Made by a program: the position numbers and the translations under genes. Shown here one piece after another: positions 5,317 to 17,966 of a stretch of DNA of 64,000 nt. The DNA is taken from contig JAECRL010000013.1 in assembly GCA_016000265.1 (NCBI GenBank), positions 7,387 through 71,386 of the forward strand. The letters run 5' to 3'. Numbering within the stretch: position 1 is the stretch's first letter; each line of letters opens with the position of its first letter. Below the pieces are notes generated by a model. The model was not told where the DNA came from. It searched no databases and was given only the letters and a program-made list of their open reading frames with translations. Source of the DNA: Burkholderiales bacterium (GTDB lineage: Bacteria; Pseudomonadota; Gammaproteobacteria; Burkholderiales; Burkholderiaceae_C).

Positions 5317-5339
5317 AACATGCATTTTTAATGCAACTT
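5317..5339 (+). promoter_or_regulatory. NsrR binding site upstream of hmp
   Basis: AACATGCATTTTTAATGCAACTT fits the 11-1-11 NsrR box (AAGATGYATTT-N-AAATRCATCTT); lies 13 nt before the hmp ATG; nsrR is adjacent. Confidence 0.8.
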
Positions 5340-5351
5340 AAAGGACCCCCG

Positions 5352-6575
5352 ATGCTCCCGGCCCCCATCCGCGACCTCGTTCGCAGCACCGCCCCCCTGC
5401 TCCAGGCCCACGGCGAGACCCTGACGCGCCACTTCTACGCCCGCCTCTTCGAGCACCAGCCCGAGCTGCGCGCCGTCTTCAACCAGGGCCACCAGCGTTC
5501 GGGTCAGCAGCAGCAGGCCCTGGCCGGCGCCGTGGCCGCCTACGCCGCGCACATCGACGACCCGACCCCGCTGGCGCCGGTGCTGGAGCGCATCGCCCAC
5601 AAGCACGTCAGCCTGGGCATCCGAGCCGAACACTATGGCGTGGTCGGGCGACACCTGCTGGCCTCCATCGCCGAGGTGCTGGGGCCCGATCTGGCCACAC
5701 CCGAGTTGATCGAAGCCTGGCGCCAGGCCTACGGCCAACTCGCCGAGGTGCTGGTCAACGCCGAAAACAAGCTCTACGCGCAAGCGGTCTCGCAAGACGG
5801 CGGCTGGAGCGGCTGGCGGCGCTTTCGCATCGACGCCACCCACCTGGAGTCCAGCGAGGTGCGCTCCTTCGTGCTGAGCCCGCAAGACGGCGGCGCGGTC
5901 TGCGCGCACCTGCCTGGCCAGTACGTGTCGGTGCGCCTGACGGTGGACGAAGGCCGCCTGCAGCAGGCCCGCCAGTACAGCCTGTCGCAGGCCGCCAACG
6001 GGCGCACGCTGCGCATCTCGGTCAAGCGCGAAGACGCGGTGGCCACCGAGGGCGGCGGCATCCAGCCCGCGGGCATGGTCTCCAACACCCTGCACGACCA
6101 CCACCAGGTCGGCGACGTGGTCGAGGTGGCGCCCCCCATGGGCGAGTTCGTGCTGCACACCGACCGCAGCACGCCGGTGGTGCTGCTGAGCGCCGGCATC
6201 GGCGTCACCCCCATGCGCGCCATGCTGGAGCACCTCGGGCGCCACCAGCCGCAGCGCCACGTGTGGGCGCTGCACGCCGCGCGCGACCGCTCGGCCCTGG
6301 CCCTGCACGGCGAGGTGACGTCCCTGCTGCGCGACCTGCCCCACGCGCACCACCGCACGCACCTGGAAACGCTGGACGCGGCCTCGGCCGACGAGGGCAT
6401 GCTGCGCGGGCGCATGGACCTGGGCGCGCTGTCCGGCTCCCTGCCCCTGCGGGATGCGGACTTCTACCTCTGCGGCCCACTGGGCTTCATGCGCGCGCAG
6501 ATCCGCAGCCTGCGCGACCTGGGTGTGCCGGCCAACCGCATCCACGCCGAGGCCTTCGGCACCGGCGGGGTCTGA
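5352..6575 (+). CDS. hmp: Flavohemoprotein (NO dioxygenase)
   Basis: Globin (FNQGHQRSGQQQQALA, IAHKHVSLG) + FAD domain (RQYSL) + NAD domain (SAGIGVTP, FYLCGP, EAFG); AAGGA RBS before ATG 5352. Confidence 0.95.
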   Translation: MLPAPIRDLVRSTAPLLQAHGETLTRHFYARLFEHQPELRAVFNQGHQRSGQQQQALAGAVAAYAAHIDDPTPLAPVLERIAHKHVSLGIRAEHYGVVGRHLLASIAEVLGPDLATPELIEAWRQAYGQLAEVLVNAENKLYAQAVSQDGGWSGWRRFRIDATHLESSEVRSFVLSPQDGGAVCAHLPGQYVSVRLTVDEGRLQQARQYSLSQAANGRTLRISVKREDAVATEGGGIQPAGMVSNTLHDHHQVGDVVEVAPPMGEFVLHTDRSTPVVLLSAGIGVTPMRAMLEHLGRHQPQRHVWALHAARDRSALALHGEVTSLLRDLPHAHHRTHLETLDAASADEGMLRGRMDLGALSGSLPLRDADFYLCGPLGFMRAQIRSLRDLGVPANRIHAEAFGTGGV

Positions 6576-6596: not shown

Positions 6597-7046
6597 ATGC
6601 AACTGACGCACTTCACGGACCTGGGCCTGCGTGTCCTGATGTACCTCACCCAGTCACAGGTTCTGCCGTCCCCGCCCCCCCAGCCACCCGTCACCATCGG
6701 CGAGATCGCACAGCGCTTCGACGTCTCCCGCCACCACCTCGTGAAGGTGGTGCAGCACCTCAGCCAGCGCGGCTGGGTGCACGCCACGCGCGGCAAGGGC
6801 GGCGGCCTGAGCCTGGGCCGCGCACCGGGCGAGATCCGCCTGGGCGAGCTGATCCGCGACCTCGAAGGCTCACGCTCGCTGGTCGACTGCAACGCGCCGC
6901 CTTGCGGCCTCCAGGGCCACTGCCAACTCAAGGGCATCCTCGATCAGGCCCTGCAAGCGCTGCACGACAAACTCGACGAATTCACCTTGCAGGACGCGGT
7001 GGCCTCGCCCACTCGCGAGACGCTCATCCAGCTGATTCGGCGCTGA
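6597..7046 (+). CDS. nsrR: Rrf2 family NO-sensing repressor NsrR
   Basis: MQLTHFTDLGLRVLMYL, HLVKVVQHL, RGKGGG, LVDCNAPPCGLQGHC (three Fe-S Cys); adjacent to hmp. Confidence 0.9.
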   Translation: MQLTHFTDLGLRVLMYLTQSQVLPSPPPQPPVTIGEIAQRFDVSRHHLVKVVQHLSQRGWVHATRGKGGGLSLGRAPGEIRLGELIRDLEGSRSLVDCNAPPCGLQGHCQLKGILDQALQALHDKLDEFTLQDAVASPTRETLIQLIRR

Positions 7047-8011: not shown

Positions 8012-8779
8012 ATGCAAACCCGCTCGACCCTCTCCCTGCTGGCCCTGGCCACCAGCCTGACCTGCTCCTTCGCCTGGGCACACGATGGTGCCCACAAGGC
8101 GGCCCACCAGGGCGGCATCCAGGCGCCCGCCGTCAAGAAGACGGGCAAACCGCCCTTCGACATCATCCACACCAAGGTCACCACCGAGGGCAACACCGCC
8201 ATCTTCCACATGGCCGTCTCCGGCAAGGCCGGCCTGAGCCGCCCGACCAAGTCCGGCAAACTCGCCGGCAGCCAGGTCTTCTCGTACGTGTGGCCCACCT
8301 CGCTGGACCCATCGACCGTGGGCTTCGAGCCCAAGGCCGGCATCCTGGCCTTCGCGGTGACCTCTCACCCCGACTTCGACGACACCCCGCTGTTCGACGA
8401 AAACGGCGACGGCAACGCCACCAACGACGGCAACGTGTGGCACTCGCACTGGGTCGTGCTGCAACCCGATGACGCCTGCGGCAAAGGTGCGCTCAAGGTC
8501 GTCGACATCCCCGAAGGCGCCAAGCCCAAGCTGCCCAAGACCTGGCCGGGCCTGCCCATCCTGATCGACAGCCCGGGCTGGTCGCCCAAGATCAGTCAGG
8601 ACACGGTCGAGGTGCGCGTGCCCTTCGACGACATCGGCGCCGTCAACGCCGGCAGCTTCGACGGCGTGACCGCCGCGCTGCGCGTCAACGCCAGCGTGCA
8701 CAACCCGCTGCTGTGCGTCGTCAACGTCTTCAAGGTCGCCTCCGGCAACCTGTCCCTGCCGGGCAAGGTCAATCAGTGA
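8012..8779 (+). CDS. Secreted hypothetical protein, probable metal-binding
   Basis: Signal peptide ending AWA then HDGAH; DFDDTPLFDENGDG acidic loop and WHSHWVVL motif; AAGGA RBS. Confidence 0.75.
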   Translation: MQTRSTLSLLALATSLTCSFAWAHDGAHKAAHQGGIQAPAVKKTGKPPFDIIHTKVTTEGNTAIFHMAVSGKAGLSRPTKSGKLAGSQVFSYVWPTSLDPSTVGFEPKAGILAFAVTSHPDFDDTPLFDENGDGNATNDGNVWHSHWVVLQPDDACGKGALKVVDIPEGAKPKLPKTWPGLPILIDSPGWSPKISQDTVEVRVPFDDIGAVNAGSFDGVTAALRVNASVHNPLLCVVNVFKVASGNLSLPGKVNQ

Positions 8780-8841: not shown

Positions 8842-9375
8842 ATGTCCCGCGTCAACCTCCAGCCCCAGCAAGCCCCCGCCGCCAGCCAGCCCCTGCTGGC
8901 CCAGATCAACCAGGCCTTCGGCGCCACGCCCAACATGTTCAAGGCCGTGGCCAACTCGCCGGCCGCGCTGCAAAGCATGTGGGCCGCCTTCGGGGCCCTG
9001 GGCACCGGCACCCTGGGTGCCAAGCTCGGCGAGCAGATCGCGGTGGCCATCGCCAACCGCAACCGCTGCGAGTACTGCCTGGCCGCGCACACCGTGCTGG
9101 GCCAGAACGCCGGCGCCTCCGCCACCGAGATGGCCGCCGCCCAGGTCGGCCAGTCCGATGATCCGCGCACCGCCGCCGCGCTGCGCTTCGCGCTCAAGGT
9201 CGTCACCGATCGCGCCCAACTCGCCGACGGCGACGTGGCCGAGCTGCACGAAGTCGGCTTCAAGGACGAGCAGGTCGTCGAGATCCTGGCCCACGTGGCT
9301 TTGAACCTCTACACGAACTACATCAACGTGGCGCTCAACGTGCCGGTCGACTTCCCCAAGGTCGCCCTGAAGTGA
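8842..9375 (+). CDS. AhpD/carboxymuconolactone decarboxylase family peroxidase-like protein (copy 1)
   Basis: PNMFKAVANSP, EQIAVAIANRNRCEYCLAAH (ExxxxxxxxxxxCxxCxxxH). Confidence 0.88.
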   Translation: MSRVNLQPQQAPAASQPLLAQINQAFGATPNMFKAVANSPAALQSMWAAFGALGTGTLGAKLGEQIAVAIANRNRCEYCLAAHTVLGQNAGASATEMAAAQVGQSDDPRTAAALRFALKVVTDRAQLADGDVAELHEVGFKDEQVVEILAHVALNLYTNYINVALNVPVDFPKVALK

Positions 9376-9391: not shown

Positions 9392-9862
9392 ATGAACCTC
9401 CAGATCGACGCCAGCGAATGGCTCAACACCCAGGCCCCCTTGTCGCTGCAGGCGCTGCGCGGCTCGGTGGTCGTGGTCACGGCCTTCCAGATGCTGTGCC
9501 GGGGCTGCGCTCAAACCAGCCTGCCGCAGGCCCGCAGCCTGCACCTGGCTTTCGCTCGGCCAGACCTGGTCGTCATCGGGCTGCACAGCGTGTTCGAACA
9601 CCACGAGGCCATGACCCCCACGGCCTTGCGGGCCTTCGTTCACGAGTACCAGCTGCCGTTTCCCATCGCCATCGACCGCCAGGTGCCCGGGGCCACGCTG
9701 CCCGCCACCATGCGCGCGTGGGACCTGCAGGGCACCCCGAGCATGCTGGTCTTCGACCGCCAGGGTGACTTGCAGGCCCACCACTTCGGGCACATGGACG
9801 ACCTGCGACTGGGCGCGCTGCTGGGTCAATTGATCGCCCAACCCACCCCCGAGACACCATGA
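9392..9862 (+). CDS. Redoxin/TlpA-like thioredoxin-fold protein
   Basis: LRGSVVVVTAFQMLCRGC (CxxC), VIGLHSVFEHH, LQGTPS. Confidence 0.8.
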   Translation: MNLQIDASEWLNTQAPLSLQALRGSVVVVTAFQMLCRGCAQTSLPQARSLHLAFARPDLVVIGLHSVFEHHEAMTPTALRAFVHEYQLPFPIAIDRQVPGATLPATMRAWDLQGTPSMLVFDRQGDLQAHHFGHMDDLRLGALLGQLIAQPTPETP

Positions 9863-10122
9863 AAATCGCCGTCTTCGACACCCACGTGCGCCGCCCCGAC
9901 GGCTCGCGCATGCACTTCGACATCCTGGTCGACGACCAGCACAAGGACATCGACACCGTGCTGGCCCACGGGCGCCGCTACCTGGCCGCCAAGGGCCTGG
10001 CGCCCGAGACCCTGAGCGCACGCGAGTGCAGCTTCTGTCACACCGAGCCGGGGCACCCGAACATCGAAGCAGAAATCCTCAAAGAAGGGTTTGCCATCAT
10101 CGAGATGGAAAACTGCCACTGA
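9859..10122 (+). CDS. DUF2024 family protein
   Basis: MKIAVFDTHV...MHFDILV...ECSFCH...GFAIIEMENC pattern; ATGA overlap with upstream gene. Confidence 0.8.
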   Translation: MKIAVFDTHVRRPDGSRMHFDILVDDQHKDIDTVLAHGRRYLAAKGLAPETLSARECSFCHTEPGHPNIEAEILKEGFAIIEMENCH

Positions 10123-10144: not shown

Positions 10145-10172
10145 GGCCGCCACATGCGGCCATTTTTGTTTT
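10145..10172 (+). terminator. Rho-independent terminator
   Basis: GGCCGC-CACAT-GCGGCC hairpin followed by ATTTTTGTTTT. Confidence 0.7.
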
Positions 10173-10272: not shown

Positions 10273-10301
10273 TTGACAGCACCCGACTCGGCCCATAAAG
10301 T
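10273..10301 (+). promoter_or_regulatory. Sigma70 promoter of the propeller/diiron operon
   Basis: TTGACA (10273-10278), 17 nt, TAAAGT (10296-10301). Confidence 0.7.
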
Positions 10302-10314
10302 TTCGAGTCGAAAC
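10300..10314. promoter_or_regulatory. Palindromic operator overlapping the -10/+1 region
   Basis: Perfect inverted repeat GTTTCGA-G-TCGAAAC; related GTTTCAAAC direct repeats at 10226 and 10236. Confidence 0.55.
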
Positions 10315-10357
10315 ATCAAGAGATGCATTCAAACATTCAACCAGGAAGGAAATTGAA

Positions 10358-11629
10358 ATGAAATCGAGAAACGCCCGAATCCTCGGCGCCATGGCCCTCG
10401 CGTTCGGCAGCCTCTCCGCTCAGGCGCACGTGGTCAGCGCGGTCAACATGATGCATTGCGACCTCATCTTGATCAACGCCGACACCGACGAAATGGTCAT
10501 GACCCCGCTGATGGACCTGCTCGGCTGGCCCGACGCCGTCTGCCAGCACAGCTGGATCCTGCCCAATGAATCCAAGGTGTTCATCTCCACCGACGCCAAC
10601 CAGGGCGTGGGCACCAAGGTGGCCGCCCTGACGATCAAAAGCATCGACTGGGCCAACAAGAAGGTCGACCTCTCGCTGGACGCCTTGATCCCCATGGGCC
10701 AGGCCGCCACCCTGTCGTCCATCCCCGTGCCGACGCAGACCAGCCCCCTGCAGCCCATCCCGCCCGTGCCCTCGGCCTGGTTCCCGAAATACTCGCAGAT
10801 TCACGGCCCCACCCTGCTGCCCGGAACCGATTTCTCCTACCTCACCGGCTACACCGACTCCAATATCTACGTCATCAACAACAAAACCAACAAACTGGTT
10901 ACCAAGCAGAGTTTCGGAAACGCCAGCCGGCAAATGCATGGCATTTATTTCAATTCCATCGGTTCTTTGGGCCTGAGCGCGCCCTACCAGTTTGACCTCA
11001 ACCAGGTCAACGTCTACCGGCCCAACCCGCGCACGGGCGTGCTGACCCAGTTGGGCGCCATCCGCCTGGGCTCGCGCGCCGAGTACGCCGCCTTCTCGCA
11101 CTTCGTGACCTGGGTGGGCAACCGCTACGCCTACATCGGCACCATGCAGTCCGACAAGACCAGCCTGACGCCGTCTGGCGCCAAGGTGATCGGCCCCAGC
11201 GTGTGGCGCCTGGACACCGCGACCCTGACGGCCACCCGCGTGCTCGGCCCCACGCCGCACGTCAACGGCACGGGCGTCTACCGCCCGGCGTCGGACGTGG
11301 CGGTGGTGGGCAACACCCTGATCGTGGCCGAAGAAGACACCCTGGACGGCGCCGTCGGCCCCGGCTACATCGCCTTCTTCGACATCGCCGACCTGAACCG
11401 CCCCCGCCTCATCAAGCGACTGGTGCCCGGCGTGGACCTGCCGGCGGACTTCAAGGTCGCCCACGTCATCAGCGTGCCCGACGACCAGGTCTTCGCCTAC
11501 GTGTCGAGCTACCACAGCAACCACCTGATCAAGCTGGAGATCGCCACGCAAAAGGTGCTGAAGGTCTACTCCGCCGCGGACGGCCTGGACATGCCGCACG
11601 GTGAGTTCATCTCGGGCAACCTGCGCTGA
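10358..11629 (+). CDS. Secreted beta-propeller protein with recurring His motifs, function unknown
   Basis: Sec signal ending AQA, mature N-terminus His24; blade-like repeats QH64SWILP, IH149GPTLLP, MH194GIYFN, SH248FVTW, SD313VAVV, AH369VISV, PH414GEFI; AGGA RBS. Confidence 0.75.
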   Translation: MKSRNARILGAMALAFGSLSAQAHVVSAVNMMHCDLILINADTDEMVMTPLMDLLGWPDAVCQHSWILPNESKVFISTDANQGVGTKVAALTIKSIDWANKKVDLSLDALIPMGQAATLSSIPVPTQTSPLQPIPPVPSAWFPKYSQIHGPTLLPGTDFSYLTGYTDSNIYVINNKTNKLVTKQSFGNASRQMHGIYFNSIGSLGLSAPYQFDLNQVNVYRPNPRTGVLTQLGAIRLGSRAEYAAFSHFVTWVGNRYAYIGTMQSDKTSLTPSGAKVIGPSVWRLDTATLTATRVLGPTPHVNGTGVYRPASDVAVVGNTLIVAEEDTLDGAVGPGYIAFFDIADLNRPRLIKRLVPGVDLPADFKVAHVISVPDDQVFAYVSSYHSNHLIKLEIATQKVLKVYSAADGLDMPHGEFISGNLR

Positions 11630-11636
11630 CCCGAAC

Positions 11637-11667
11637 GGAGGGGCGCGGGCTGGGTCAGCGCCCCTCC
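11637..11667. other. Intergenic RNA hairpin without U-tract (possible stability/processing element)
   Basis: GGAGGGGCGC (11637-11646) and GCGCCCCTCC (11658-11667) form a perfect 10-bp stem. Confidence 0.5.
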
Positions 11668-11707
11668 AACTGCGCCCAAAACACATTCAATCAGCTGAGG
11701 AATCCAC

Positions 11708-12694
11708 ATGCAAACGCAAGCCACCTCCCCGAGCGCCGCGCTCGCAGCCGCAGCCGCTGTGACCCCCGACGCCTCCCGCTCCATGGCCCTGCTGGGCCGC
11801 ATCGCCAAAGGCTGGGGCCAGCGCGCCCAGGTCAAGCAGCGCGAACTCGACCTGGCCTACGACGCCAGCCGCCCCGACTTCCTCGAGAGCCTGCTGCCCT
11901 TCCACCTGCACCCGCTCTACGAGTCGCTCGACGAGCGCACCAAGGGCCGCATCCTGTCTTGCGGCTGGCTCATCTACAACGAGAAGACGGTGGCCATCGA
12001 GCTCGACATCGTCAGCCCCGCCTGCCACGACATCCTCTACGAGAACGTGCCCGGCCTGGACACCGAGTGGGCCAAGGAGATCGTCTGCGAGACCCTGGTC
12101 GACGAGGCCTATCACCTGCTGCTGGTCAAGAACGCCAACCGCCTGACGCGCGAGGTGCGCGACCTCTCCCACATCCGCATCCCGCAGTTCGCGCTGGTGC
12201 GCCAGATGCAGGAAGAGCAAGCCCGCCACACGCCCGCCTGGGCGCCGATGCTGGTGCGCCTGAGCACCGCCGTGGTCTCCGAGATCTTCATCAGCGACTA
12301 CCTGCACCAGCTGTCGGAAGAGGAGTCGATCCAGCCGCTCAACCGCGCCACCGTGGCCGCGCACCGCCACGACGAGCTGGCGCACTCCAAGATCTTCGCC
12401 GAGCTCACACGCGCCTTCTTCCAGGCGCTGAGCAGCTCACAGAAGTCCTTCTTCGCCGAGACCCTGCCCAAGTCCATCCACTGGTTCGCCGACAAGGAGC
12501 TCGACCTGTGGCTGGACGTGCTCAAGCAACTGGGCGTGGGCCAGGCCGGCACGATCATCGAAGACAGCCGCCAGATCAACCAGGTCGCGCTGGAGCGGGT
12601 GGACTACTCCGGCGTCATCCAGTTGGCCGAAGACGTCGGCATCCTGGACACGCGCGAAGGCCGCAGTGCGTTCAGCCACGCCGGCCTGATCTGA
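11708..12694 (+). CDS. AurF/CmlI/DnfA-family non-heme diiron N-oxygenase
   Basis: E98, D132-E133-x2-H136, E192, H219-x2-D-E223-x2-H226: same spacing as the AurF ligand set E101/E136/H139/E196/H223/E227/H230, including the extra His. Confidence 0.9.
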   Translation: MQTQATSPSAALAAAAAVTPDASRSMALLGRIAKGWGQRAQVKQRELDLAYDASRPDFLESLLPFHLHPLYESLDERTKGRILSCGWLIYNEKTVAIELDIVSPACHDILYENVPGLDTEWAKEIVCETLVDEAYHLLLVKNANRLTREVRDLSHIRIPQFALVRQMQEEQARHTPAWAPMLVRLSTAVVSEIFISDYLHQLSEEESIQPLNRATVAAHRHDELAHSKIFAELTRAFFQALSSSQKSFFAETLPKSIHWFADKELDLWLDVLKQLGVGQAGTIIEDSRQINQVALERVDYSGVIQLAEDVGILDTREGRSAFSHAGLI

Positions 12695-12703
12695 GGAGCG
12701 CAC

Positions 12704-12868
12704 GTGAGCTGGGAATGCCTGATCTGCAACTGGCGCTACGACCCCGTCACCGGCGCGCCGGCGGCGGGCATCGCAGGGGGCACCCCCTTCGACGAGCTGC
12801 CGCACGACTGGACCTGCCCCGACTGCGGGGCCGCCAAAGAAGATTTTTTTGAAGTGGAGGCCCCATGA
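12704..12868 (+). CDS. Rubredoxin (54 aa, missing from ORF track)
   Basis: GTG start after GAGGAG RBS; MSWECLICNWRYDPVTGAPAAGIAGGTPFDELPHDWTCPDCGAAKEDFFEVEAP*; CxxC...WxCPxCG; TGA overlaps the next ATG. Confidence 0.95.
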   Translation: MSWECLICNWRYDPVTGAPAAGIAGGTPFDELPHDWTCPDCGAAKEDFFEVEAP

Positions 12869-13575
12869 GCCCGAAAAAAACACAGGTGGTGGCCATCCAG
12901 CACCTGGCATTCGAAGACCTCGGCTCGTTCGAGGCCGTGCTGCGCGAGCAGGACATGGACATCACCCACCTGCAAGCGGGGGTCGACGACGTGAGCCAGG
13001 CGCTGGCGCAGGCCGACATCGCCGTGGTGCTGGGCGGCCCGATCGGGGTCTACGAAACCGAGGCCTACCCCTTCTTGCTCGACGAGATCGAAGCCCTGCG
13101 CCAGCGCATGCTCGCGCGCAAGCCCACGCTGGGCATCTGCCTGGGCTCGCAGCTGATGGCGCAGGCCTTTGGCGGGCGCGTGTACCCGGGCGGCCAGAAA
13201 GAGATCGGCTGGGGGGAGCTGACGCTGTCGGACAGCGGGCGGCGCTCGCCCCTGCAGCACCTGCAAGGCGCCGCGGTGCTGCACTGGCACGGCGACACCT
13301 TCGAGTTGCCGCCGGACGCCGAGCTGCTGGCCTCGTCGCCGCTGTACGCCAACCAGGCCTTTCGCATCGGCAGCAACCTGCTGGCCCTGCAATGCCACCC
13401 CGAGGCGCAGGCGCGCACCTTCGAGCGCTGGCTGATCGGCCACGCCGGCGAGCTGGCCTCGGCGCGCCTGGACGTGCCCACCTTGCGGGCGCAGGCTCAG
13501 CGCCTGGGCCCCACGCTGGAGCGCGCCAGCCAGGCCATGCTGCGCGAGTGGCTCGCCGACCTGGTCTGGGCCTGA
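12865..13575 (+). CDS. Stand-alone class I glutamine amidotransferase (DnfC-like)
   Basis: QHLAFEDLG, VLGGPIGVY, LGICLGSQ (Cys nucleophile), LHWHGDTF, LQCHPE (His-x-Glu). Confidence 0.9.
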   Translation: MSPKKTQVVAIQHLAFEDLGSFEAVLREQDMDITHLQAGVDDVSQALAQADIAVVLGGPIGVYETEAYPFLLDEIEALRQRMLARKPTLGICLGSQLMAQAFGGRVYPGGQKEIGWGELTLSDSGRRSPLQHLQGAAVLHWHGDTFELPPDAELLASSPLYANQAFRIGSNLLALQCHPEAQARTFERWLIGHAGELASARLDVPTLRAQAQRLGPTLERASQAMLREWLADLVWA

Positions 13576-14280
13576 ATGCCAGCCACCTCGCCCGTCGTCC
13601 ACCTCGGTGTGGTCGAGCGCGTGCTGTGCGGCACGCCCCGGCCCCTGCCCGGGCGCGGCCGCAGCTCGCTGGGGCGCACCGAGGTGGACGCCCTCGACGT
13701 CGGGCTGCTGGGCGTGGCGGGCGACGACTTCGGTGACCGCACCCACCACGGCGGCAGCGAGAAGGCCCTGCACCAGTACCCCGCCGAGCACCTGCCCCGG
13801 TGGCAGCAGGCGTTGCCCGATGACGCCGCGCGCTTCCAGGTCGGCGCCTTTGGCGAGAACCTCTCCAGCCGCGGCCTCGACGAGCACGGCCTGTGCATCG
13901 GCGACACGCTGCGCATCGGCTCGGCCACCCTGCAGGTCTCCCAAGGCAGGCAACCCTGCTGGAAACTGGGGGCGTACTTCGGCCGCGACGACCTGGCCAG
14001 CCTGGCCCAGGCCAGCGGGCGCCTGGGCTGGTACCTGCGCACGCTGGAGCCCGGTCGCATCCGCGCCGCCGACGCCATCGAGTTGCTGGCGCGCCCCAAC
14101 CCGGACTGGAGCGTGGACCGCGTGCACCGCGCCGTCTTCGAGCGGCGGCACACCCCGGCCGAGCTGCAGGCGCTGGCCGAGCTGCCCGGCTTGAGCCCGC
14201 GCTGGCGCGCGCTGTTTGCGCGCCGACTGGCCTCACCCCACGAGGAGGAGCCCACCGCCCGGCTGACCGGCCCGCCATAA
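13576..14280 (+). CDS. MOSC domain protein, YiiM-like
   Basis: HHGGSEKALHQY, FGENL, SQGRQPCWKL, GWYLRTLEPG and C-terminal 3-alpha region. Confidence 0.88.
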   Translation: MPATSPVVHLGVVERVLCGTPRPLPGRGRSSLGRTEVDALDVGLLGVAGDDFGDRTHHGGSEKALHQYPAEHLPRWQQALPDDAARFQVGAFGENLSSRGLDEHGLCIGDTLRIGSATLQVSQGRQPCWKLGAYFGRDDLASLAQASGRLGWYLRTLEPGRIRAADAIELLARPNPDWSVDRVHRAVFERRHTPAELQALAELPGLSPRWRALFARRLASPHEEEPTARLTGPP

Positions 14281-14290
14281 TCACCGCACG

Positions 14291-14914
14291 ATGAGCAAGA
14301 AGACACCTGAATGGGAGAGCCTGACGCACCGCCACGCCCCCGTCGGGTCCGAGCAGGCGTTCGAAGCCACGGCGCTCAGCCTCGGTGAGCTGTTCCTGTA
14401 CGAAACGCACCGCTTCGCCACCCGGCATCGCCTCGACGTGGTGCACCTGAGGGCGTTGAGCTTCCTGCAGCAGGCCAACAAGTACAGCGACACCTCGGTG
14501 GCGCTGGTTGACCACCTGGGGCTGACCAAGGGCACCGTCTCCAAGTCGATCGCGCTGCTGGCCCAGCGCGGCCTGCTGCGCAAGGTGCCCGACCTGGTGG
14601 ACCGACGCCGCCTCCACCTGCAGCTCACCGACGCGGGCCAGGAGACCGCCCGGGCGTTCGCCGAGCACCTGCAGTGGTCGCGCCTGACGGCCTTGCTGAC
14701 GCCCGAGCAGCGTGCGGCGGTGGACGGGGCGCTCAAGACCATCCTGCGCACCAGCCAGCAACTCAACGAGCGGCGCACCTTCGGCCTGTGCCGGACCTGT
14801 CGCCGCTTCCGCCCCGAAGGCGACGGCGGCTTCTGCCTGCTCACCCAGGAGGCGCTGACGCCTCACCAGACCCACCAGCGCTGCCGGGAGCACGAGCCGC
14901 CCCCCGCGCGCTGA
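14291..14914 (+). CDS. MarR family regulator with C-terminal Cys/His cluster
   Basis: LGLTKGTVSKSIALLAQRGLL...DRRRLHLQLT winged HTH; C-terminal FGLCRTCRRF...FCLL...RCREH. Confidence 0.85.
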   Translation: MSKKTPEWESLTHRHAPVGSEQAFEATALSLGELFLYETHRFATRHRLDVVHLRALSFLQQANKYSDTSVALVDHLGLTKGTVSKSIALLAQRGLLRKVPDLVDRRRLHLQLTDAGQETARAFAEHLQWSRLTALLTPEQRAAVDGALKTILRTSQQLNERRTFGLCRTCRRFRPEGDGGFCLLTQEALTPHQTHQRCREHEPPPAR

Positions 14915-14938
14915 CACGACTCGAAAGAGACCCCGCCC

Positions 14939-15172
14939 ATGCACGCGCAATACCGCATCGACATCCTCAAGGACGGCGCCCTCTGGGGTGCGCTGCACAT
15001 CGACCACCCCCAGTCCGAGGCCGCGCTCCACGAGATGCTGGCCGTGCTGCGGGGCCAGGGCTACACCTGCCGCGTGATGCAAGCCAGCGGCGAGCGCCGG
15101 CTGCTGGAGAGCACGCCCGCGGGCGTCTCCTTGCTGTTTCGCGAACCGATCTTCCAGGCCCGAGCCGACTGA
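14939..15172 (+). CDS. Small hypothetical protein (77 aa)
   Basis: Protein-like ORF with host codon usage, GERRLLESTPAG...REPIF; follows marR in the same orientation. Confidence 0.6.
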   Translation: MHAQYRIDILKDGALWGALHIDHPQSEAALHEMLAVLRGQGYTCRVMQASGERRLLESTPAGVSLLFREPIFQARAD

Positions 15173-15182
15173 GCGGCAGCGC

Positions 15183-15199
15183 CGCACCACTGCGGTGCA
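15183..15199. promoter_or_regulatory. NtrC-type binding site
   Basis: cGCACC-ACTGC-GGTGCa fits TGCACC-N5-GGTGCA. Confidence 0.6.
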
Positions 15200-15216
15200 A
15201 AACCCCATCCTGGGGC

Positions 15217-15232
15217 AGGCACACCGTTTGCA
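15217..15232 (+). promoter_or_regulatory. Sigma54 (-24/-12) promoter of nirBD
   Basis: aGGCACACCGTTTGCa: GG-N10-GC with the TGGCAC/TTGC consensus. Confidence 0.7.
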
Positions 15233-15252
15233 TGGTGAGTGACGCGTGTCAA

Positions 15253-15348
15253 CGGGGTGAAGTCGCCCCGCCCCTCGCGCACACGCTCCGCTGACGATGG
15301 CGGACGCAGCCGGATGCCCGCGCCACCGCGGGCCGTCCCGGTCTTGTT
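15253..15348 (+). promoter_or_regulatory. Putative ANTAR (NasR) dual-hairpin leader with competing terminator
   Basis: Hairpin 15253-15270 (loop GAAGTC) and 15287-15304 (loop GACGAT), both hexaloops with G4; downstream GCCCGCG/CGCGGGC stem plus TCTTGTT; NIT-ANTAR regulator encoded in the operon. Confidence 0.5.
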
Positions 15349-15455
15349 CACCCCCACCTCACACAGAGCCCCACCCCCGCGGCCAGCGCCCTCGCCTGCC
15401 AGCGGCGGCCTCTCTGTGCCCCCTCATCGCCCCATCAGCGCCCCAGGAGCACCCC

Positions 15456-17966
15456 ATGAAAATCATCGTTGTTGGCCACGGCATGGTCGGCCACCAGTTC
15501 CTCGACAGCCTGGCTGCGACCGGCTTGACGGGCTGCGAGGTCACCGTCCTGTGCGAAGAGGTCCGCCCCGCCTACGACCGCGTGCACCTCTCCGAATTCT
15601 TCGCCGGCAAGAGCGCCGAGGACCTGTCCCTGGTCGAGCCGGGCTTTTTCGAGCGCACCGGCTTCGACCTGCGCCTGGCCGCCCGCGCCGCCAGCGTCGA
15701 CCGGCGCACCAAAACGGTCACCACCACCGACGGCGAACAACTGAGCTACGACAAGCTGGTGCTGGCCACCGGCTCCAACCCCTTCGTGCCCCCGGTGCCG
15801 GGCCGCGACCGCCCGCACTGCTTCGTCTACCGCACCATCGAAGACCTCGAGCGCATGCAGGCCTCGGGCGCGAAGTCCCGCACCGGCGTGGTCGTCGGTG
15901 GCGGCCTGCTGGGCCTGGAGTGCGCCAAGGCGCTGCGCGACATGGGCCTGGAAACCCACGTCGTCGAGTTCGCCCCGCGCCTGATGGCGGTGCAGGTCGA
16001 CGAAGGCGGTGGCCGCATCCTGCGCAGCAAGATCGAAGAGCTGGGCGTGCAGGTGCACACCGGGCGCAACACGCTGGAGATCGTCGACGGCCGCGAGGCC
16101 CGCCACCGCATGGTGTTCGCCGACGGCTCCCACCTGGAGACCGACATGATCGTGTTCTCCGCCGGCATCCGCCCGCGCGACGAGCTCGCCCGCCAGAGCG
16201 TGCTGGCCGTGGGCGCGCGCGGCGGCATCGCCATCGACAACCACTGCCGCACCAGCGACCACGACGTCTACGCCATCGGCGAGTGCGCGGCCTGGCACGA
16301 CCAGACCTTCGGCCTGGTGGCACCGGGCTACGACATGGCCCGCGTGGCCGCCAAACACATCGCGGGCAACAGCGAAGCGGCTTTCACGGGCGCCGACATG
16401 AGCACCAAGCTCAAGCTGATGGGGGTGGACGTGGCCAGCATCGGCGACGCCCACGGCAAGGCCCCGGGCTGCCGCAGCTACCAGTACGTCAACGAGGGCA
16501 AGCAGGTCTACAAGAAGATCGTGACCAGCGCGGACGGCAAGACCCTGCTGGGCGCCGTGCTGGTGGGCAACGCCGACGAATACGGCGACCTGCTGCAGAT
16601 GGCGCTCAACGGCATCGCCCTGCCCGAGGACCCCGAGTTCCTCATCCTGCCCAGCAGCGACGGCCAGGCCAAGCCCGGCCTGGGCGTGGACGCCCTGCCC
16701 GACAGCGCCCAGATCTGCTCGTGCAACAGCGTGAGCAAGGGCCAGATCTGCGCGGCCGTGGGCGAAGGCGCCACCGACATCGCCAAACTCAAGGCATGCA
16801 CCAAGGCGGGCGCGACCTGCGGCGGCTGCGTGCCCCTGGTCACCCAGGTGATGAAGGCCGAGATGGCCAAACGCGGCATGGCGGTCAACAACCACCTGTG
16901 CGAGCACTTCGCTTACTCGCGTCAGGAGCTGTTCCACCTCATCCGAGTCGGCCAGATCAAGACCTTCGACGAGCTGCTGACCCAACACGGCAAGGGCCTG
17001 GGCTGCGACGTCTGCAAGCCCACGGCGGCCAGCGTGCTGGCGTCGGTGTGGAACGACTTCGTGCTCAAGAAGGACCTCGCCAGCCTGCAAGACAGCAACG
17101 ACTACTACCTGGGCAACATCCAGAAAGACGGCAGCTACTCGGTGGTGCCGCGCATGCCCGGTGGCGAGGTCACGCCCGACGGCCTGATCGCCGTGGGCCA
17201 GGTCGCCAAGAAGTACGGCCTCTACACCAAGGTCACGGGCGGCGCGCGGGTCGACATGTTCGGCGCCCGCGTCGAGCAGCTGCCGCTGATCTGGGAGGAG
17301 CTCATCGCCGCGGGCTTCGAGTCGGGCCACGCGTACGGCAAGTCGCTGCGCACGGTCAAGAGCTGCGTGGGCAGCACCTGGTGCCGCTACGGCGTGGGCG
17401 ACAGCGTGGGCCTGGCCGTGGAGCTGGAGAACCGCTACAAGGGCCTGCGCGCGCCGCACAAGATCAAGTTCGGTGTCTCGGGCTGCACGCGTGAATGCGC
17501 CGAAGCGCAAGGCAAGGACATCGGCGTGATCGCCACCGAGAAGGGCTGGAACCTGTACGTGTGCGGCAACGGCGGCATGAAGCCCCGCCACGCCGAGCTG
17601 TTCGCCTCCGACCTGAGCAAGGACGAGCTCATCCGCCTGATCGACCGCGTGCTGATGTTCTACGTGCGCACCGCCGACCGCCTGCAGCGCACCAGCACCT
17701 GGCGCGACAACCTCGAAGGCGGCCTGGCCTACCTGCAGGGCGTGATCCTCAACGACAGCCTGGGCCTCAACGCCGAGCTCGAAGCGCAGATGCAGCACGT
17801 GGTCAACACCTACCAGTGCGAGTGGAAGACCGCCGTGACCACGCCCGAGGTGCGCCAGCGCTTCCGCAGCTTCGTCAACAGCGACCAGGCCGACGAGCAC
17901 ATCGTGTTCGTGGAAGAGCGCGGCCAGATCCGCCCGGCCCGAGCCGAAGAACGCACGACCGCCTGA
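15456..17966 (+). CDS. nirB: Assimilatory NAD(P)H nitrite reductase large subunit
   Basis: MKIIVVGHGMVG, GGGLLGLE, CSCN...CGGC BFD domains, KSCVGSTWCRYG and SGCTRECAEAQ siroheme/4Fe-4S motifs; AGGAG RBS. Confidence 0.97.
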   Translation: MKIIVVGHGMVGHQFLDSLAATGLTGCEVTVLCEEVRPAYDRVHLSEFFAGKSAEDLSLVEPGFFERTGFDLRLAARAASVDRRTKTVTTTDGEQLSYDKLVLATGSNPFVPPVPGRDRPHCFVYRTIEDLERMQASGAKSRTGVVVGGGLLGLECAKALRDMGLETHVVEFAPRLMAVQVDEGGGRILRSKIEELGVQVHTGRNTLEIVDGREARHRMVFADGSHLETDMIVFSAGIRPRDELARQSVLAVGARGGIAIDNHCRTSDHDVYAIGECAAWHDQTFGLVAPGYDMARVAAKHIAGNSEAAFTGADMSTKLKLMGVDVASIGDAHGKAPGCRSYQYVNEGKQVYKKIVTSADGKTLLGAVLVGNADEYGDLLQMALNGIALPEDPEFLILPSSDGQAKPGLGVDALPDSAQICSCNSVSKGQICAAVGEGATDIAKLKACTKAGATCGGCVPLVTQVMKAEMAKRGMAVNNHLCEHFAYSRQELFHLIRVGQIKTFDELLTQHGKGLGCDVCKPTAASVLASVWNDFVLKKDLASLQDSNDYYLGNIQKDGSYSVVPRMPGGEVTPDGLIAVGQVAKKYGLYTKVTGGARVDMFGARVEQLPLIWEELIAAGFESGHAYGKSLRTVKSCVGSTWCRYGVGDSVGLAVELENRYKGLRAPHKIKFGVSGCTRECAEAQGKDIGVIATEKGWNLYVCGNGGMKPRHAELFASDLSKDELIRLIDRVLMFYVRTADRLQRTSTWRDNLEGGLAYLQGVILNDSLGLNAELEAQMQHVVNTYQCEWKTAVTTPEVRQRFRSFVNSDQADEHIVFVEERGQIRPARAEERTTA

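What the first reader, a model, noticed from the sequence alone, without database searches (positions are those of the whole stretch)
10358..15172. Candidate variant of the dirammox (dnf) system: propeller - diiron N-oxygenase - rubredoxin - glutamine amidotransferase - MOSC - MarR operon
Seen: seven co-oriented genes behind one sigma70 promoter, with tight or overlapping junctions (12865-12868 ATGA overlap, 13575/13576 abutting). The diiron protein keeps all seven AurF-type ligands and the amidotransferase keeps its Cys-His-Glu triad. Known: in Alcaligenes the dnfABC cluster (AurF-like DnfA, electron-transfer DnfB, class I GATase DnfC) oxidises ammonia/glutamine nitrogen via hydroxylamine to N2. 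Inference: this is a dnfA/dnfC pair in a new architecture, where a rubredoxin replaces DnfB and a periplasmic propeller and a MOSC enzyme are added. There is no PKS, NRPS or PABA synthase in the window, which argues against an aureothin/chloramphenicol-type biosynthetic role. The flanking hmp-nsrR and nirBD fit handling of NO/nitrite by-products.
Basis: partly seen in the sequence, partly recalled or inferred. Interest (0 to 1): 0.88.

Follow-up and report, generated by a model that had tools for sequence, protein, structure and literature searches.

The report
Rubredoxin-type dnf-like hydroxylamine gene cluster
This Aquabacterium operon is a real, conserved relative of the "dirammox" dnfABC genes that turn glutamine or ammonium nitrogen into hydroxylamine, but it uses a small rubredoxin instead of the usual DnfB reductase, so published dnfABC surveys would not have counted it.

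Summary
Seven co-oriented genes lie at 10358-15172: a secreted 7-bladed propeller, an AurF-family diiron oxygenase with all seven ligands, rubredoxin, a class I GATase with its Cys-His-Glu triad, a MOSC/YiiM protein, a MarR with a Cys4 tail and a 77-aa ORF. They follow one promoter-like site.

The dnf-like reading is supported by comparison, not by experiment.
- In a careful tree the diiron protein falls in a 100/100 clade with canonical DnfA and group IV DnfA. AurF, CmlI and a PABA-synthase-linked homologue fall outside it.
- Its nearest named relatives, at 46-49% identity, are the Streptomyces, Actinoplanes and Paraherbaspirillum proteins that a 2026 mBio survey lists as dnfABC groups Ic and III.
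- A PRK07053 GATase lies near the diiron gene in 24 of 25 related loci. The electron donor varies: a DnfB-like reductase in 16, rubredoxin in 6.
- The propeller, MOSC, MarR, DUF2024, a secreted 253-aa protein, hmp and an operator palindrome are shared with a Motilimonas group IV cluster.

Caveats:
- No member of this subclade has been assayed.
- PRK07053 GATases are common without DnfA.
- Relatives at 42-46% identity are fused to ATP-grasp domains.
- The nirBD adjacency is not conserved.

I rate it a new variant of a known kind, of moderate interest.

The parts
5317..5339 (.). NsrR-type 11-1-11 inverted repeat (AACATGCATTT-T-TAATGCAACTT) at the hmp start
   Evidence: That this is the consensus for an NsrR site comes from my own knowledge of E. 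coli NsrR sites.
5331..6575 (+). hmp flavohaemoglobin (NO dioxygenase type). It is a conserved neighbour of this module in three lineages.
   Evidence: Globin + FAD_binding_6 + NAD_binding_1. hmp lies next to the module in L001, L010 and Motilimonas L042.
6597..7046 (+). Rrf2-family regulator (NsrR-like)
   Evidence: Rrf2 PF02082, E 3.7e-32. Conserved alongside hmp in L001 and L010.
8018..8779 (+). Secreted 253-aa protein of unknown fold ('sec253'), a conserved companion of dnf-like clusters
   Evidence: No Pfam, NCBIfam or PDB match. Homologues of 55-70% identity lie beside the clusters of Motilimonas, L029, L016 and Paraherbaspirillum soli. The signal peptide was read by eye. The AF2 model failed, with pLDDT 42.
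8842..9375 (+). AhpD/CMD-family peroxidase-related protein
   Evidence: CMD PF02627. TIGR01926 at 83 bits against a cut-off of 81.8. 76% identical homologue in the P. soli locus.
9392..9862 (+). AhpC/TSA-like redoxin
   Evidence: PF00578. Homologues lie in L029, L016 and L025. In Motilimonas a peroxiredoxin domain is fused to the GATase.
9859..10122 (+). DUF2024 small protein with CxxCH and a C-terminal CH
   Evidence: PF09630, E 6.6e-26. PDB 2hfq, E 3.8e-12. Two copies lie in the Motilimonas cluster.
10145..10170 (+). Terminator-like hairpin plus T-run, separating the upstream unit from the operon
10273..10301 (+). Sigma-70-like promoter TTGACA-17-TAAAGT
   Evidence: 10 of 12 positions match, and it is the only site in 8.4 kb where shuffles give 0.3. 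The -35 and -10 are conserved in L010, L017 and L011.
10300..10314 (.). Perfect palindrome GTTTCGA-G-TCGAAAC overlapping the -10: candidate operator of the operon's MarR
   Evidence: Conserved in L010, L017 and L011. It is the only match in the window. The same motif occurs six times in Motilimonas L042, in its three dnf-region promoter regions, and 0 of 200 shuffles reach that number.
10358..11629 (+). Secreted 7-bladed beta-propeller. An invariant His lies in the inner strand of six blades, so it is a probable hub metal site.
   Evidence: AF2 pLDDT 92.7, pTM 0.90. Only generic propeller folds match, TM at most 0.61. H64, H149, H194, H369 and H414 are invariant and H248 nearly so in 41 sequences. 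It lies directly upstream of the diiron gene in 21 of 25 related loci. The Sec signal peptide (AQA|H) was read by eye; it is absent in actinobacterial homologues.
11708..12694 (+). AurF-family diiron N-oxygenase (DnfA-like)
12704..12868 (+). Rubredoxin, in the place of DnfB
   Evidence: PF00301, E 4.4e-20. CxxC...CPxC and the GGAG-GTG start were read. Rubredoxin also lies next to the diiron gene in L006, L014, L015, L029, L010, L011 and L017.
12865..13575 (+). Class I glutamine amidotransferase of the PRK07053 family (DnfC-like)
   Evidence: It is 47% identical to the DnfC of a canonical dnfABC cluster.
13576..14280 (+). MOSC/YiiM-type molybdoenzyme (reductase of N-hydroxylated compounds)
   Evidence: MOSC E 1.7e-35 and YiiM_3-alpha. 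PRK11536 at 142 bits, below its cut-off of 294. MOSC neighbours occur in L007, L015, L016, L025, L029 and L042.
14291..14914 (+). MarR-family regulator with an invariant C-terminal Cys4 motif (C167, C170, C182, C198)
   Evidence: and the alignment with the Motilimonas and RIFCSP orthologues.
14939..15172 (+). 77-aa conserved ORF of unknown function
   Evidence: GC3 0.91. 33% identical homologue next to the MOSC gene in Aquabacterium soli and UBA1834.

Best explanation
This is a dnf-like module that oxygenates glutamine (or ammonium) nitrogen to hydroxylamine, built around a rubredoxin.

Proposed working:
1. Housekeeping glutamine synthetase fixes NH4+ into glutamine.
2. The diiron oxygenase (11708-12694) receives electrons by the route NAD(P)H, then a rubredoxin reductase encoded elsewhere in the genome, then the operon's rubredoxin. 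It N-hydroxylates the glutamine amide with O2, giving gamma-glutamyl hydroxamate.
3. The PRK07053 GATase (12865-13575) hydrolyses the hydroxamate to glutamate plus free NH2OH.
4. The remaining genes control and clean up. The MOSC/YiiM enzyme reduces stray N-hydroxylated compounds. AhpC/AhpD-like proteins remove peroxide from uncoupled turnover. Hmp, under NsrR control, removes NO. The secreted His-lined propeller, perhaps together with the secreted 253-aa protein, acts on the diffusible product in the periplasm. The Cys4-MarR represses the operon at the palindrome that overlaps the -10.

What is shown: gene content, catalytic residues, phylogenetic side, co-conservation and the shared operator. 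What is inferred: substrate, product, electron route, the role and metal of the propeller, and the regulation.
For: Domains and catalytic residues are intact.

Phylogeny. In the careful IQ-TREE a 73-row clade with 100/100 support and a stem of 0.615 joins this protein with canonical DnfA (Alcaligenes and others) and with the Motilimonas group IV DnfA. It excludes AurF, CmlI and a PabB/PabA-linked homologue.

Neighbourhoods.
- Of 25 related genome loci, 24 have the GATase nearby, 21 have the propeller directly upstream, 16 have a DnfB-like reductase and 6 have a rubredoxin in its stead.
- The closest named relatives (Paraherbaspirillum soli, Actinoplanes, Streptomyces) are genera listed as dnfABC groups III and Ic in PMC13753816.
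- The Motilimonas group IV cluster carries the same accessory set: MOSC, hmp, DUF2024 (twice), MarR, the propeller, a peroxiredoxin fused to the GATase, and sec253. It also shares the MarR Cys4 tail and the palindromic operator at three of its promoter regions.

Published function. A group IV cluster from Shewanella sp. AS16 made E. coli produce NH2OH from ammonium and from glutamine (PMC13753816).

Biochemical precedent. An AurF homologue, TsnB7, N-hydroxylates the glutamine amide, and DnfC hydrolyses the hydroxamate (PMC11160463).

Electron supply. A rubredoxin/rubredoxin-reductase-like pair exists elsewhere in this genome, at C6:285227-286321.
Against: - No member of this subclade, nor of groups Ic and III, has been assayed. 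All tested clusters (Ia, Ib, II, IV) fall in the other, 21-row clade.
- Identity to Alcaligenes DnfA is 26.5%, no higher than to CmlI at 32%.
- The link between this subclade and Ic/III has only 76/77 support.
- PRK07053 GATases occur in 29 of 401 genomes of the same GTDB family, and only 2 of those have a DnfA-like gene. In the GATase tree the solo and the AurF-linked proteins interleave.
- Relatives at 42-46% identity are ATP-grasp::AurF fusions. A DnfA/DnfB-like pair inside the canonical clade is linked to an ATP-grasp gene instead of a GATase. Substrate and role therefore vary within the family.
- There is no reductase for the rubredoxin in the operon.
Confidence: 0.6

Rival explanations
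1. The module has a biosynthetic role. The diiron enzyme and the GATase make or transfer an N-hydroxy group for a small secreted metabolite (a hydroxamate, a nitroso or diazeniumdiolate-type signal, or a siderophore-like compound), not free hydroxylamine as an end product.
For: - Close relatives are fused to ATP-grasp ligase, aminotransferase or TauD domains.
- A DnfA/DnfB-like pair in Pantoea sits with an ATP-grasp gene, an arylamine N-acetyltransferase and an MFS exporter.
- TsnB7 and TsnB9 in trichostatin biosynthesis use the same chemistry to build a hydroxamate (PMC11160463).
Against: - The window has no ligase, NRPS, PKS, carrier protein or exporter next to the operon.
- The conserved companions are detoxifying or redox proteins (MOSC, Hmp, AhpC/AhpD-like), not tailoring enzymes.
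- The GATase is a stand-alone glutaminase-type protein with no synthase domain.
Confidence: 0.15
2. The module consumes rather than produces. The diiron protein oxidises hydroxylamine or another exogenous amine or N-hydroxy compound (as DnfA was first described, a hydroxylamine oxidase forming N2). Together with MOSC, Hmp and the propeller, the island defends against reactive nitrogen coming from outside.
For: - DnfA was reported to oxidise NH2OH to N2 in vitro (PMC9478400, cited).
- The neighbourhood is dominated by NO, peroxide and N-hydroxy detoxifying functions and by NO- and redox-type regulators.
- Native strains carrying accessory-rich clusters accumulated no NH2OH.
Against: - This does not explain the near-obligate pairing with a glutamine amidotransferase (24 of 25 loci).
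- Lenferink et al. found the conversion of NH2OH to N2 to be abiotic.
- dnfABC clusters confer production of NH2OH in E. coli.
Confidence: 0.15
3. The genes are merely adjacent and form no functional unit.
For: Single components (the PRK07053 GATase, MOSC, rubredoxin) are common on their own.
Against: Order and linkage are conserved across Proteobacteria and Actinobacteria. The junctions are overlapping or abutting. The operator is shared with Motilimonas.
Confidence: 0.03

Closest known systems
dnfABC (dirammox) of Alcaligenes ammonioxydans HO-1 and A. faecalis JQ135, and the canonical group Ia clusters (Delftia, Pseudomonas)
   Same: - An AurF-family diiron oxygenase with the same seven ligands.
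- An adjacent stand-alone PRK07053 class I GATase. The GATase here scores 323 bits against that model and the canonical DnfC scores 339.
- A dedicated electron-transfer gene between or beside the two.
- The same side of the family tree.
   Different: - There is no DnfB (FNR plus 2Fe-2S reductase); a 54-aa rubredoxin takes its place.
- The diiron protein is only 26.5-29% identical to canonical DnfA and lies outside the 21-row clade that holds every tested cluster.
- This cluster has extra genes: the propeller, MOSC, MarR-Cys4, DUF2024, AhpC/AhpD-like proteins and sec253. It lacks dnfT, dnfR and dnfD.
dnfABC groups Ic, III and IV of the 2026 mBio survey (Streptomyces, Actinoplanes, Paraherbaspirillum, Motilimonas, Shewanella; PMC13753816)
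   Same: - The nearest diiron relatives (46-49% identity) come from genera that the survey lists in groups Ic and III.
- The propeller lies directly upstream of the diiron gene.
- MOSC and MarR are neighbours.
- With the Motilimonas group IV cluster it also shares hmp, DUF2024, sec253, a peroxiredoxin function, the MarR Cys4 tail and the operator palindrome.
   Different: - Those clusters keep a DnfB-like reductase, whereas this one has rubredoxin. It therefore fails the survey's rule that DnfA, DnfB and DnfC must co-occur, and Aquabacterium is not among the survey's 26 genera.
- Groups Ic and III are themselves untested.
AurF and CmlI arylamine N-oxygenases (PDB 3chh, 5hyg)
   Same: The same Pfam family and the same diiron ligand set. 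CmlI is the best PDB match, E 1.4e-43.
   Different: - They are separated from this protein by a 100/100 branch.
- The protein scores 118 bits against NCBIfam diiron_AurF, whose cut-off is 620.
- There is no PABA synthase or polyketide/chloramphenicol context. A true PabB/PabA-linked homologue in a related genome (L038) groups with AurF and CmlI instead.
TsnB7/TsnB9 hydroxylamine-transfer machinery of trichostatin A biosynthesis
   Same: An AurF homologue that N-hydroxylates the glutamine amide, followed by an amidotransferase-type enzyme acting on gamma-glutamyl hydroxamate (PMC11160463). This is the same chemistry as proposed here.
   Different: TsnB9 passes NH2OH on to a polyketide acid within a biosynthetic cluster.
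Rubredoxin / rubredoxin-reductase electron chains of the diiron alkane hydroxylase (AlkB-AlkG-AlkT)
   Same: A small rubredoxin feeds a diiron oxygenase. Tistrella, Aureimonas and L029 carry the full rubredoxin plus reductase set beside the AurF-family gene.
   Different: The oxygenase fold is different: a soluble four-helix-bundle AurF type rather than membrane-bound AlkB. In this window the reductase is not linked to the operon.

Membership tests
dnfABC (dirammox) system | DnfA: an AurF-family diiron oxygenase with a complete ligand set | tested here: met
   PF11583, E 1.6e-46. E98, E133, H136, E192, H219, E223 and H226 align with the AurF, CmlI and DnfA ligands.
dnfABC (dirammox) system | DnfA groups with DnfA proteins rather than with arylamine oxygenases | tested here: met
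   A 73-row clade with 100/100 support holds this protein, canonical DnfA and group IV DnfA. AurF, CmlI and the PabAB-linked homologue lie outside it.
dnfABC (dirammox) system | DnfA lies within the clade spanned by the experimentally active clusters (groups Ia, Ib, II, IV) | tested here: not met
   Canonical plus group IV form a separate 21-row clade (100/99). This protein is in a different subclade, together with Ic/III (76/77).
dnfABC (dirammox) system | DnfB: a TsaB-like FNR plus [2Fe-2S] reductase in the same neighbourhood (required by the PMC13753816 definition) | tested here: not met
   There is no DnfB-like hit in the operon or in the window beyond the FNR domain of hmp. Rubredoxin stands in its place.
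dnfABC (dirammox) system | DnfC: an adjacent stand-alone class I GATase with a Cys-His-Glu triad | tested here: met
   PF00117. NF005458 scores 323 bits here against a cut-off of 250, and the same model scores 339 bits on a canonical DnfC. Cys92, His178 and Glu180 are present. Caveat: the family is not specific to dnf.
dnfABC (dirammox) system | Confers NH2OH (and N2) formation from NH4+ or glutamine | not testable with these tools
   This needs expression and 15N assays.
AurF/CmlI-type arylamine N-oxygenase | Equivalog-level similarity and a biosynthetic context that supplies an arylamine | tested here: not met
   NF045603 scores 118 bits against a cut-off of 620. No PABA synthase, PKS or NRPS was found in the window. 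The protein lies on the other side of a 100/100 branch.
YiiM (6-N-hydroxylaminopurine reductase) MOSC proteins | A MOSC domain plus the YiiM 3-alpha domain, and an equivalog score | tested here: inconclusive
   Both Pfam domains are present. NF008577 scores 142 bits, below its cut-off of 294. It has the same architecture but is not an equivalog.
Hub-metal 7-bladed propeller enzymes (NosZ CuZ, thiocyanate dehydrogenase, methanethiol oxidase types) | A 7-bladed propeller with metal-binding His on the inner strands | tested here: inconclusive
   The 7-bladed model has pLDDT 92.7, and an invariant His lies in the first strand of six blades. Coordinates could not be inspected. The PDB matches are generic, with thiocyanate dehydrogenase only at rank 42. 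The metal is unknown.

The most novel reading that the evidence does not exclude
The secreted six-His 7-bladed propeller, with the co-conserved secreted 253-aa protein, is a new periplasmic metalloenzyme that converts hydroxylamine or a nitrogen oxide derived from it. Homologues of about 40% identity occur in ammonia oxidisers (Nitrosospira multiformis ATCC 25196, Nitrosomonas, Nitrosovibrio). They keep the same invariant His residues and sit next to the copper chaperone SCO1/SenC. On this reading they would do a related job in lithotrophic nitrification, for example as an unassigned step that converts NH2OH or NO.
Probability: 0.12. Interest if true: 0.85.

Novelty: new variant of a known kind. 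Interest (0 to 1): 0.55.

Why it matters
Surveys of dirammox potential currently require DnfA, DnfB and DnfC together. Clusters in which a rubredoxin, with or without its reductase, replaces DnfB are therefore not counted. They occur in Aquabacterium-like Burkholderiales, Tistrella, Aureimonas and uncultured Nitrosomonadales and Gammaproteobacteria. If they are active, the taxonomic and environmental reach of heterotrophic hydroxylamine formation is underestimated, notably in groundwater, freshwater and metagenome-derived lineages, which that survey excluded.

The conserved accessory set also points to proteins that may decide the fate of the hydroxylamine once it is made. It comprises the propeller, sec253, DUF2024, MOSC, Hmp and a Cys4-MarR with a defined operator. 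The fate of the hydroxylamine is the contested part of the dirammox pathway.

Tried and rejected
1. Structure of the secreted 253-aa protein. The AF2 model, built on 6 sequences, failed (pLDDT 42.5), so no fold search was run.
2. NsrR control of the operon. A half-site-like GAGATGCATTC lies at 10320-10330, but it is not above chance (5 matches against 3.4 expected) and is not conserved in L017 or L011. I rejected it. The full NsrR box before hmp stands.
3. nirBD as part of the system. It is not adjacent in relatives, so the link is probably coincidental.
4. The GATase family as a dnf marker. I rejected this, because 29 of 401 genomes of the GTDB family carry a PRK07053 GATase and only 2 have a DnfA-like gene, and the tree interleaves the two kinds.
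5. Equating the propeller with the 'hypO1' of PMC13753816. A Xanthobacter group II cluster has no propeller within 7 kb, and the paper's figures and supplements are not held, so this remains unverified.
6. Whether the Nitrosomonadales and Gammaproteobacteria MAGs (L029, L016) are ammonia oxidisers. There is no AmoA match, but the control genomes lack AmoA too, so the result is uninformative.
7. Rubredoxin specificity. The operon's rubredoxin is about equally distant (38-52% identity) from the genome's four other rubredoxins and from the AurF-linked ones elsewhere, so this says nothing.
9. Sequence search of the propeller against PDB. Only weak YncE-family matches were found (E about 4e-4).

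Full report
**Observation**

The seven + strand ORFs exist at the stated coordinates. The six that are long enough to score have the GC3 bias of real genes in this 69% GC genome, at 0.91-0.94.

Pfam and NCBIfam give the following:
- 10358-11629: 423 aa, no family.
- 11708-12694: AurF PF11583, E 1.6e-46.
- 12704-12868: rubredoxin, E 4.4e-20.
- 12865-13575: class I GATase, and NCBIfam NF005458/PRK07053 at 323 bits against a cut-off of 250.
- 13576-14280: MOSC plus YiiM_3-alpha.
- 14291-14914: MarR_2.
- 14939-15172: 77 aa, no family.

There is an ATGA overlap at 12865-12868, and a stop at 13575 abuts an ATG at 13576. The rubredoxin starts at GTG 12704, behind a GGAG.

The DUF2024 gene ends at 10122. 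It is followed by a hairpin with a T-run at 10145-10170, then by the only sigma-70-like match in 8.4 kb, TTGACA-17-TAAAGT at 10273-10301, where shuffles give 0.3.

All seven AurF-type ligand positions are kept, as E98, E133, H136, E192, H219, E223 and H226. The GATase has GICLG (Cys92) and His178-Pro-Glu180. The flanks hold hmp and an Rrf2/NsrR-like gene upstream, and nirB, nirD and a NIT-ANTAR regulator downstream. No PKS, NRPS or PABA synthase appeared among the 37 window proteins scanned.

The window is contig 13 of a 3.56-Mb, 93%-complete genome. Its closest public relative is an uncultured Aquabacterium MAG whose diiron protein is 95% identical.

**What is known**

DnfA, DnfB and DnfC of Alcaligenes are an AurF/CmlI-like diiron oxygenase, a TsaB-like flavin/[2Fe-2S] reductase and a YfeJ-like GATase. 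Glutamine is an intermediate, and the route from NH2OH to N2 is disputed (PMC13753816; PMC11440038).

A 2026 survey found dnfABC in 690 genomes of 26 genera, sorted them into groups I-V, and noted mosC, hypO1 and MarR genes as frequent neighbours. It counted a genome only if DnfA, DnfB and DnfC all co-occurred, and it excluded MAGs. Clusters of groups Ia, Ib, II and IV made E. coli form NH2OH from ammonium and from glutamine. Groups Ic and III were not tested. Aquabacterium is not among the 26 genera.

An AurF homologue, TsnB7, N-hydroxylates the glutamine amide, and DnfC has been reported to hydrolyse the hydroxamate (PMC11160463).

**Phylogeny of the diiron protein**

The family is small: 477 representatives at 50% clustering have E <= 1e-3.

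I built trees from four sources:
- full-length representatives;
- 21 relatives taken from named genomes, chosen from the 25 found plus the Tistrella locus;
- canonical DnfA sequences, which are 76% identical between an unnamed 6.6-Mb genome of the same GTDB family (G324, a classic DnfA-DnfB-DnfC operon) and Alcaligenes;
- the AurF and CmlI chains printed.

The careful IQ-TREE (103 rows) gave these clades:
- A 73-row clade with 100/100 support and a stem of 0.615. It holds the window protein, the group Ic/III proteins, canonical DnfA and the Motilimonas group IV DnfA. AurF, CmlI and a homologue that sits next to PabB/PabC and PabA (L038) are outside it.
- Inside it, canonical plus group IV form a 21-row clade (100/99).
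- Also inside it, the window protein belongs to a 10-row clade (100/98) with Aquabacterium soli, Tistrella, Aureimonas and two MAGs.
- That clade joins the Paraherbaspirillum/Actinoplanes/Streptomyces clade only weakly (76/77).

However, the protein is only 26.5% identical to Alcaligenes DnfA and lies outside the clade that holds every assayed cluster.

**Neighbourhood conservation**

I ran tblastn with the window's proteins against 25 related genome loci.
- A PRK07053-type GATase lies within 6 kb in 24 of them. The exception is cut off by a contig end.
- The 423-aa protein lies directly upstream of the diiron gene in 21.
- A DnfB-like reductase is present in 16: the actinobacterial loci and P. 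soli.
- Rubredoxin is present in 6. In Aureimonas and a Nitrosomonadales MAG it comes with a rubredoxin-reductase-like gene. Tistrella, looked up separately, also has rubredoxin plus reductase.
- Three loci have neither.

The electron donor is thus an interchangeable part of an otherwise conserved core. In this window the reductase is not linked to the operon. A rubredoxin/reductase-like pair does exist elsewhere, at C6:285227-286321.

**Comparison with Motilimonas**

The strongest comparison is with a Motilimonas locus, a genus of the survey's group IV. Its genes run: MOSC, hmp and DUF2024 on one strand; then MarR; a divergent AurF gene; then DnfB, the propeller and a GATase fused to a peroxiredoxin; then a second DUF2024 and a 246-aa protein that is 55% identical to the window's secreted 253-aa protein at 8018-8779.

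The window's upstream unit (sec253, AhpD-like, AhpC-like, DUF2024) and its hmp/nsrR pair therefore belong to the same conserved set.

Regulation matches too.
- The two MarR proteins share an invariant C-terminal Cys4 motif.
- The perfect palindrome GTTTCGAGTCGAAAC, which overlaps the -10 at 10300-10314, is conserved in relatives.
- It is the only match in the window.
- In the Motilimonas locus it recurs six times, in the three intergenic regions in front of the MarR/hmp unit, the AurF/DnfB unit and the sec253 unit. None of 200 shuffles reaches that number.

**The propeller**

Proteobacterial homologues carry a Sec signal peptide (here ...SAQA|HVV), read by eye. Actinobacterial homologues start directly at MHIL(T/S)GVNM.

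AlphaFold on 41 sequences gives a confident 7-bladed propeller, pLDDT 92.7. H64, H149, H194, H369 and H414 are invariant and H248 nearly so. Each lies in the first, innermost strand of a blade, which points to a metal site at the hub. This is an inference, because the coordinates could not be inspected.

PDB matches are generic propellers with TM at most 0.61: YVTN, lactonases, hydrazine synthase beta, NirF and methylamine dehydrogenase.

Homologues of about 40% identity occur in Nitrosospira multiformis ATCC 25196, Nitrosomonas and Nitrosovibrio. There they have no AurF neighbour; in the two loci fetched (Nitrosospira multiformis and Nitrosomonas) they lie next to SCO1/SenC.

**Caveats**

- PRK07053 GATases pass the cut-off in 29 of 401 genomes of the same GTDB family, while a DnfA-like gene is present in only 2. 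Solo and AurF-linked GATases interleave in a tree. The GATase is therefore not diagnostic by itself.
- Relatives of the diiron protein at 42-46% identity are ATP-grasp::AurF fusions.
- A Pantoea DnfA/DnfB-like pair that nests inside the canonical clade is linked to an ATP-grasp gene, an N-acetyltransferase and an MFS transporter rather than to a GATase.
- The nirBD adjacency is not conserved.
- Only 3 of 401 family genomes, and none of three congeners, have any homologue of the diiron protein. The module is a patchy accessory trait.
- No expression data could be obtained.

**Conclusion**

The operon is most likely a dnf-type machine that makes hydroxylamine from glutamine, with rubredoxin substituted for DnfB. 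It is embedded in a conserved regulon for handling N-hydroxy compounds, NO and peroxide. I put my confidence at 0.6.

It is a new variant of a known kind. The parts that remain open are the secreted propeller and the 253-aa protein.

That is agreement between AI readers, not independent evidence.

Noticed in passing
L040:7001-8506 (Nitrosospira multiformis ATCC 25196) and L041:7001-8368 (Nitrosomonas sp.): Ammonia oxidisers carry homologues of the propeller at about 40% identity, with the same invariant His residues. There is no AurF neighbour. Instead the gene is followed by SCO1/SenC (a copper chaperone) and unknown proteins.
   Followed up: partly
L053:3435-9218 (Pantoea agglomerans-type contig): A 301-aa diiron protein, 68% identical to canonical DnfA and nested inside that clade, sits with a DnfB-like reductase, an ATP-grasp protein, an arylamine N-acetyltransferase, a hydrolase and an MFS transporter. 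There is no GATase. This looks like a different, probably biosynthetic, use of a DnfA/DnfB pair.
   Followed up: partly
P0243, P0249, P0263, P0318 (library representatives): Fusion proteins exist at 33-46% identity to the window's diiron protein: ATP-grasp::AurF (805 and 764 aa), AurF::aminotransferase class I/II (722 aa) and TauD::AurF (608 aa).
   Followed up: partly
L038:8482-11882 (genome G074, same GTDB family): An AurF-like gene lies directly after PabA and a PabB/PabC fusion. It is a textbook p-aminobenzoate N-oxygenase context, and it groups with AurF and CmlI in the tree.
   Followed up: yes
window 5317-5339: A near-perfect 11-1-11 inverted repeat of NsrR type (AACATGCATTT T TAATGCAACTT) lies at the annotated hmp start, so the true hmp start codon may lie further downstream.
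   Followed up: partly
window 8018-8779: A secreted 253-aa protein with no family or PDB match has strongly conserved motifs (SYVWPT, HPDFDDTP, WHSHWVVL, HNPLLCV). It travels with dnf-like clusters in at least five lineages. The structure prediction failed.
   Followed up: partly
window 9859-10122: The DUF2024 protein matches PDB 2hfq, an uncharacterised protein. It has ECxFCH and a C-terminal CH that look like a small metal site. Two copies lie in the Motilimonas dnf locus.
   Followed up: partly
genomes G234, G039, G020 and others: PRK07053-type stand-alone GATases that pass the NCBIfam cut-off occur in 29 of 401 genomes of the GTDB family. Nearly all of those genomes have no AurF-family gene, so the function of these GATases there is unknown.
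   Followed up: no
L006 (Tistrella), L067 (Xanthobacter), L039 (G324), L007 (Aquabacterium soli): Genes linked to pyridoxal phosphate (PLP) recur beside dnf and dnf-like clusters of different groups: SHMT, MocR-type GntR-aminotransferase regulators, class III aminotransferase, YggS and PdxK.
   Followed up: no
window 15173-15455: The nirB ORF as listed starts at 15297, but it has a 53-aa proline-rich N-terminal extension. The likely true start is the ATG at 15456 (MKIIVVGHG...), which leaves a 283-bp leader ahead of nirBD and the NIT-ANTAR regulator gene.
   Followed up: no
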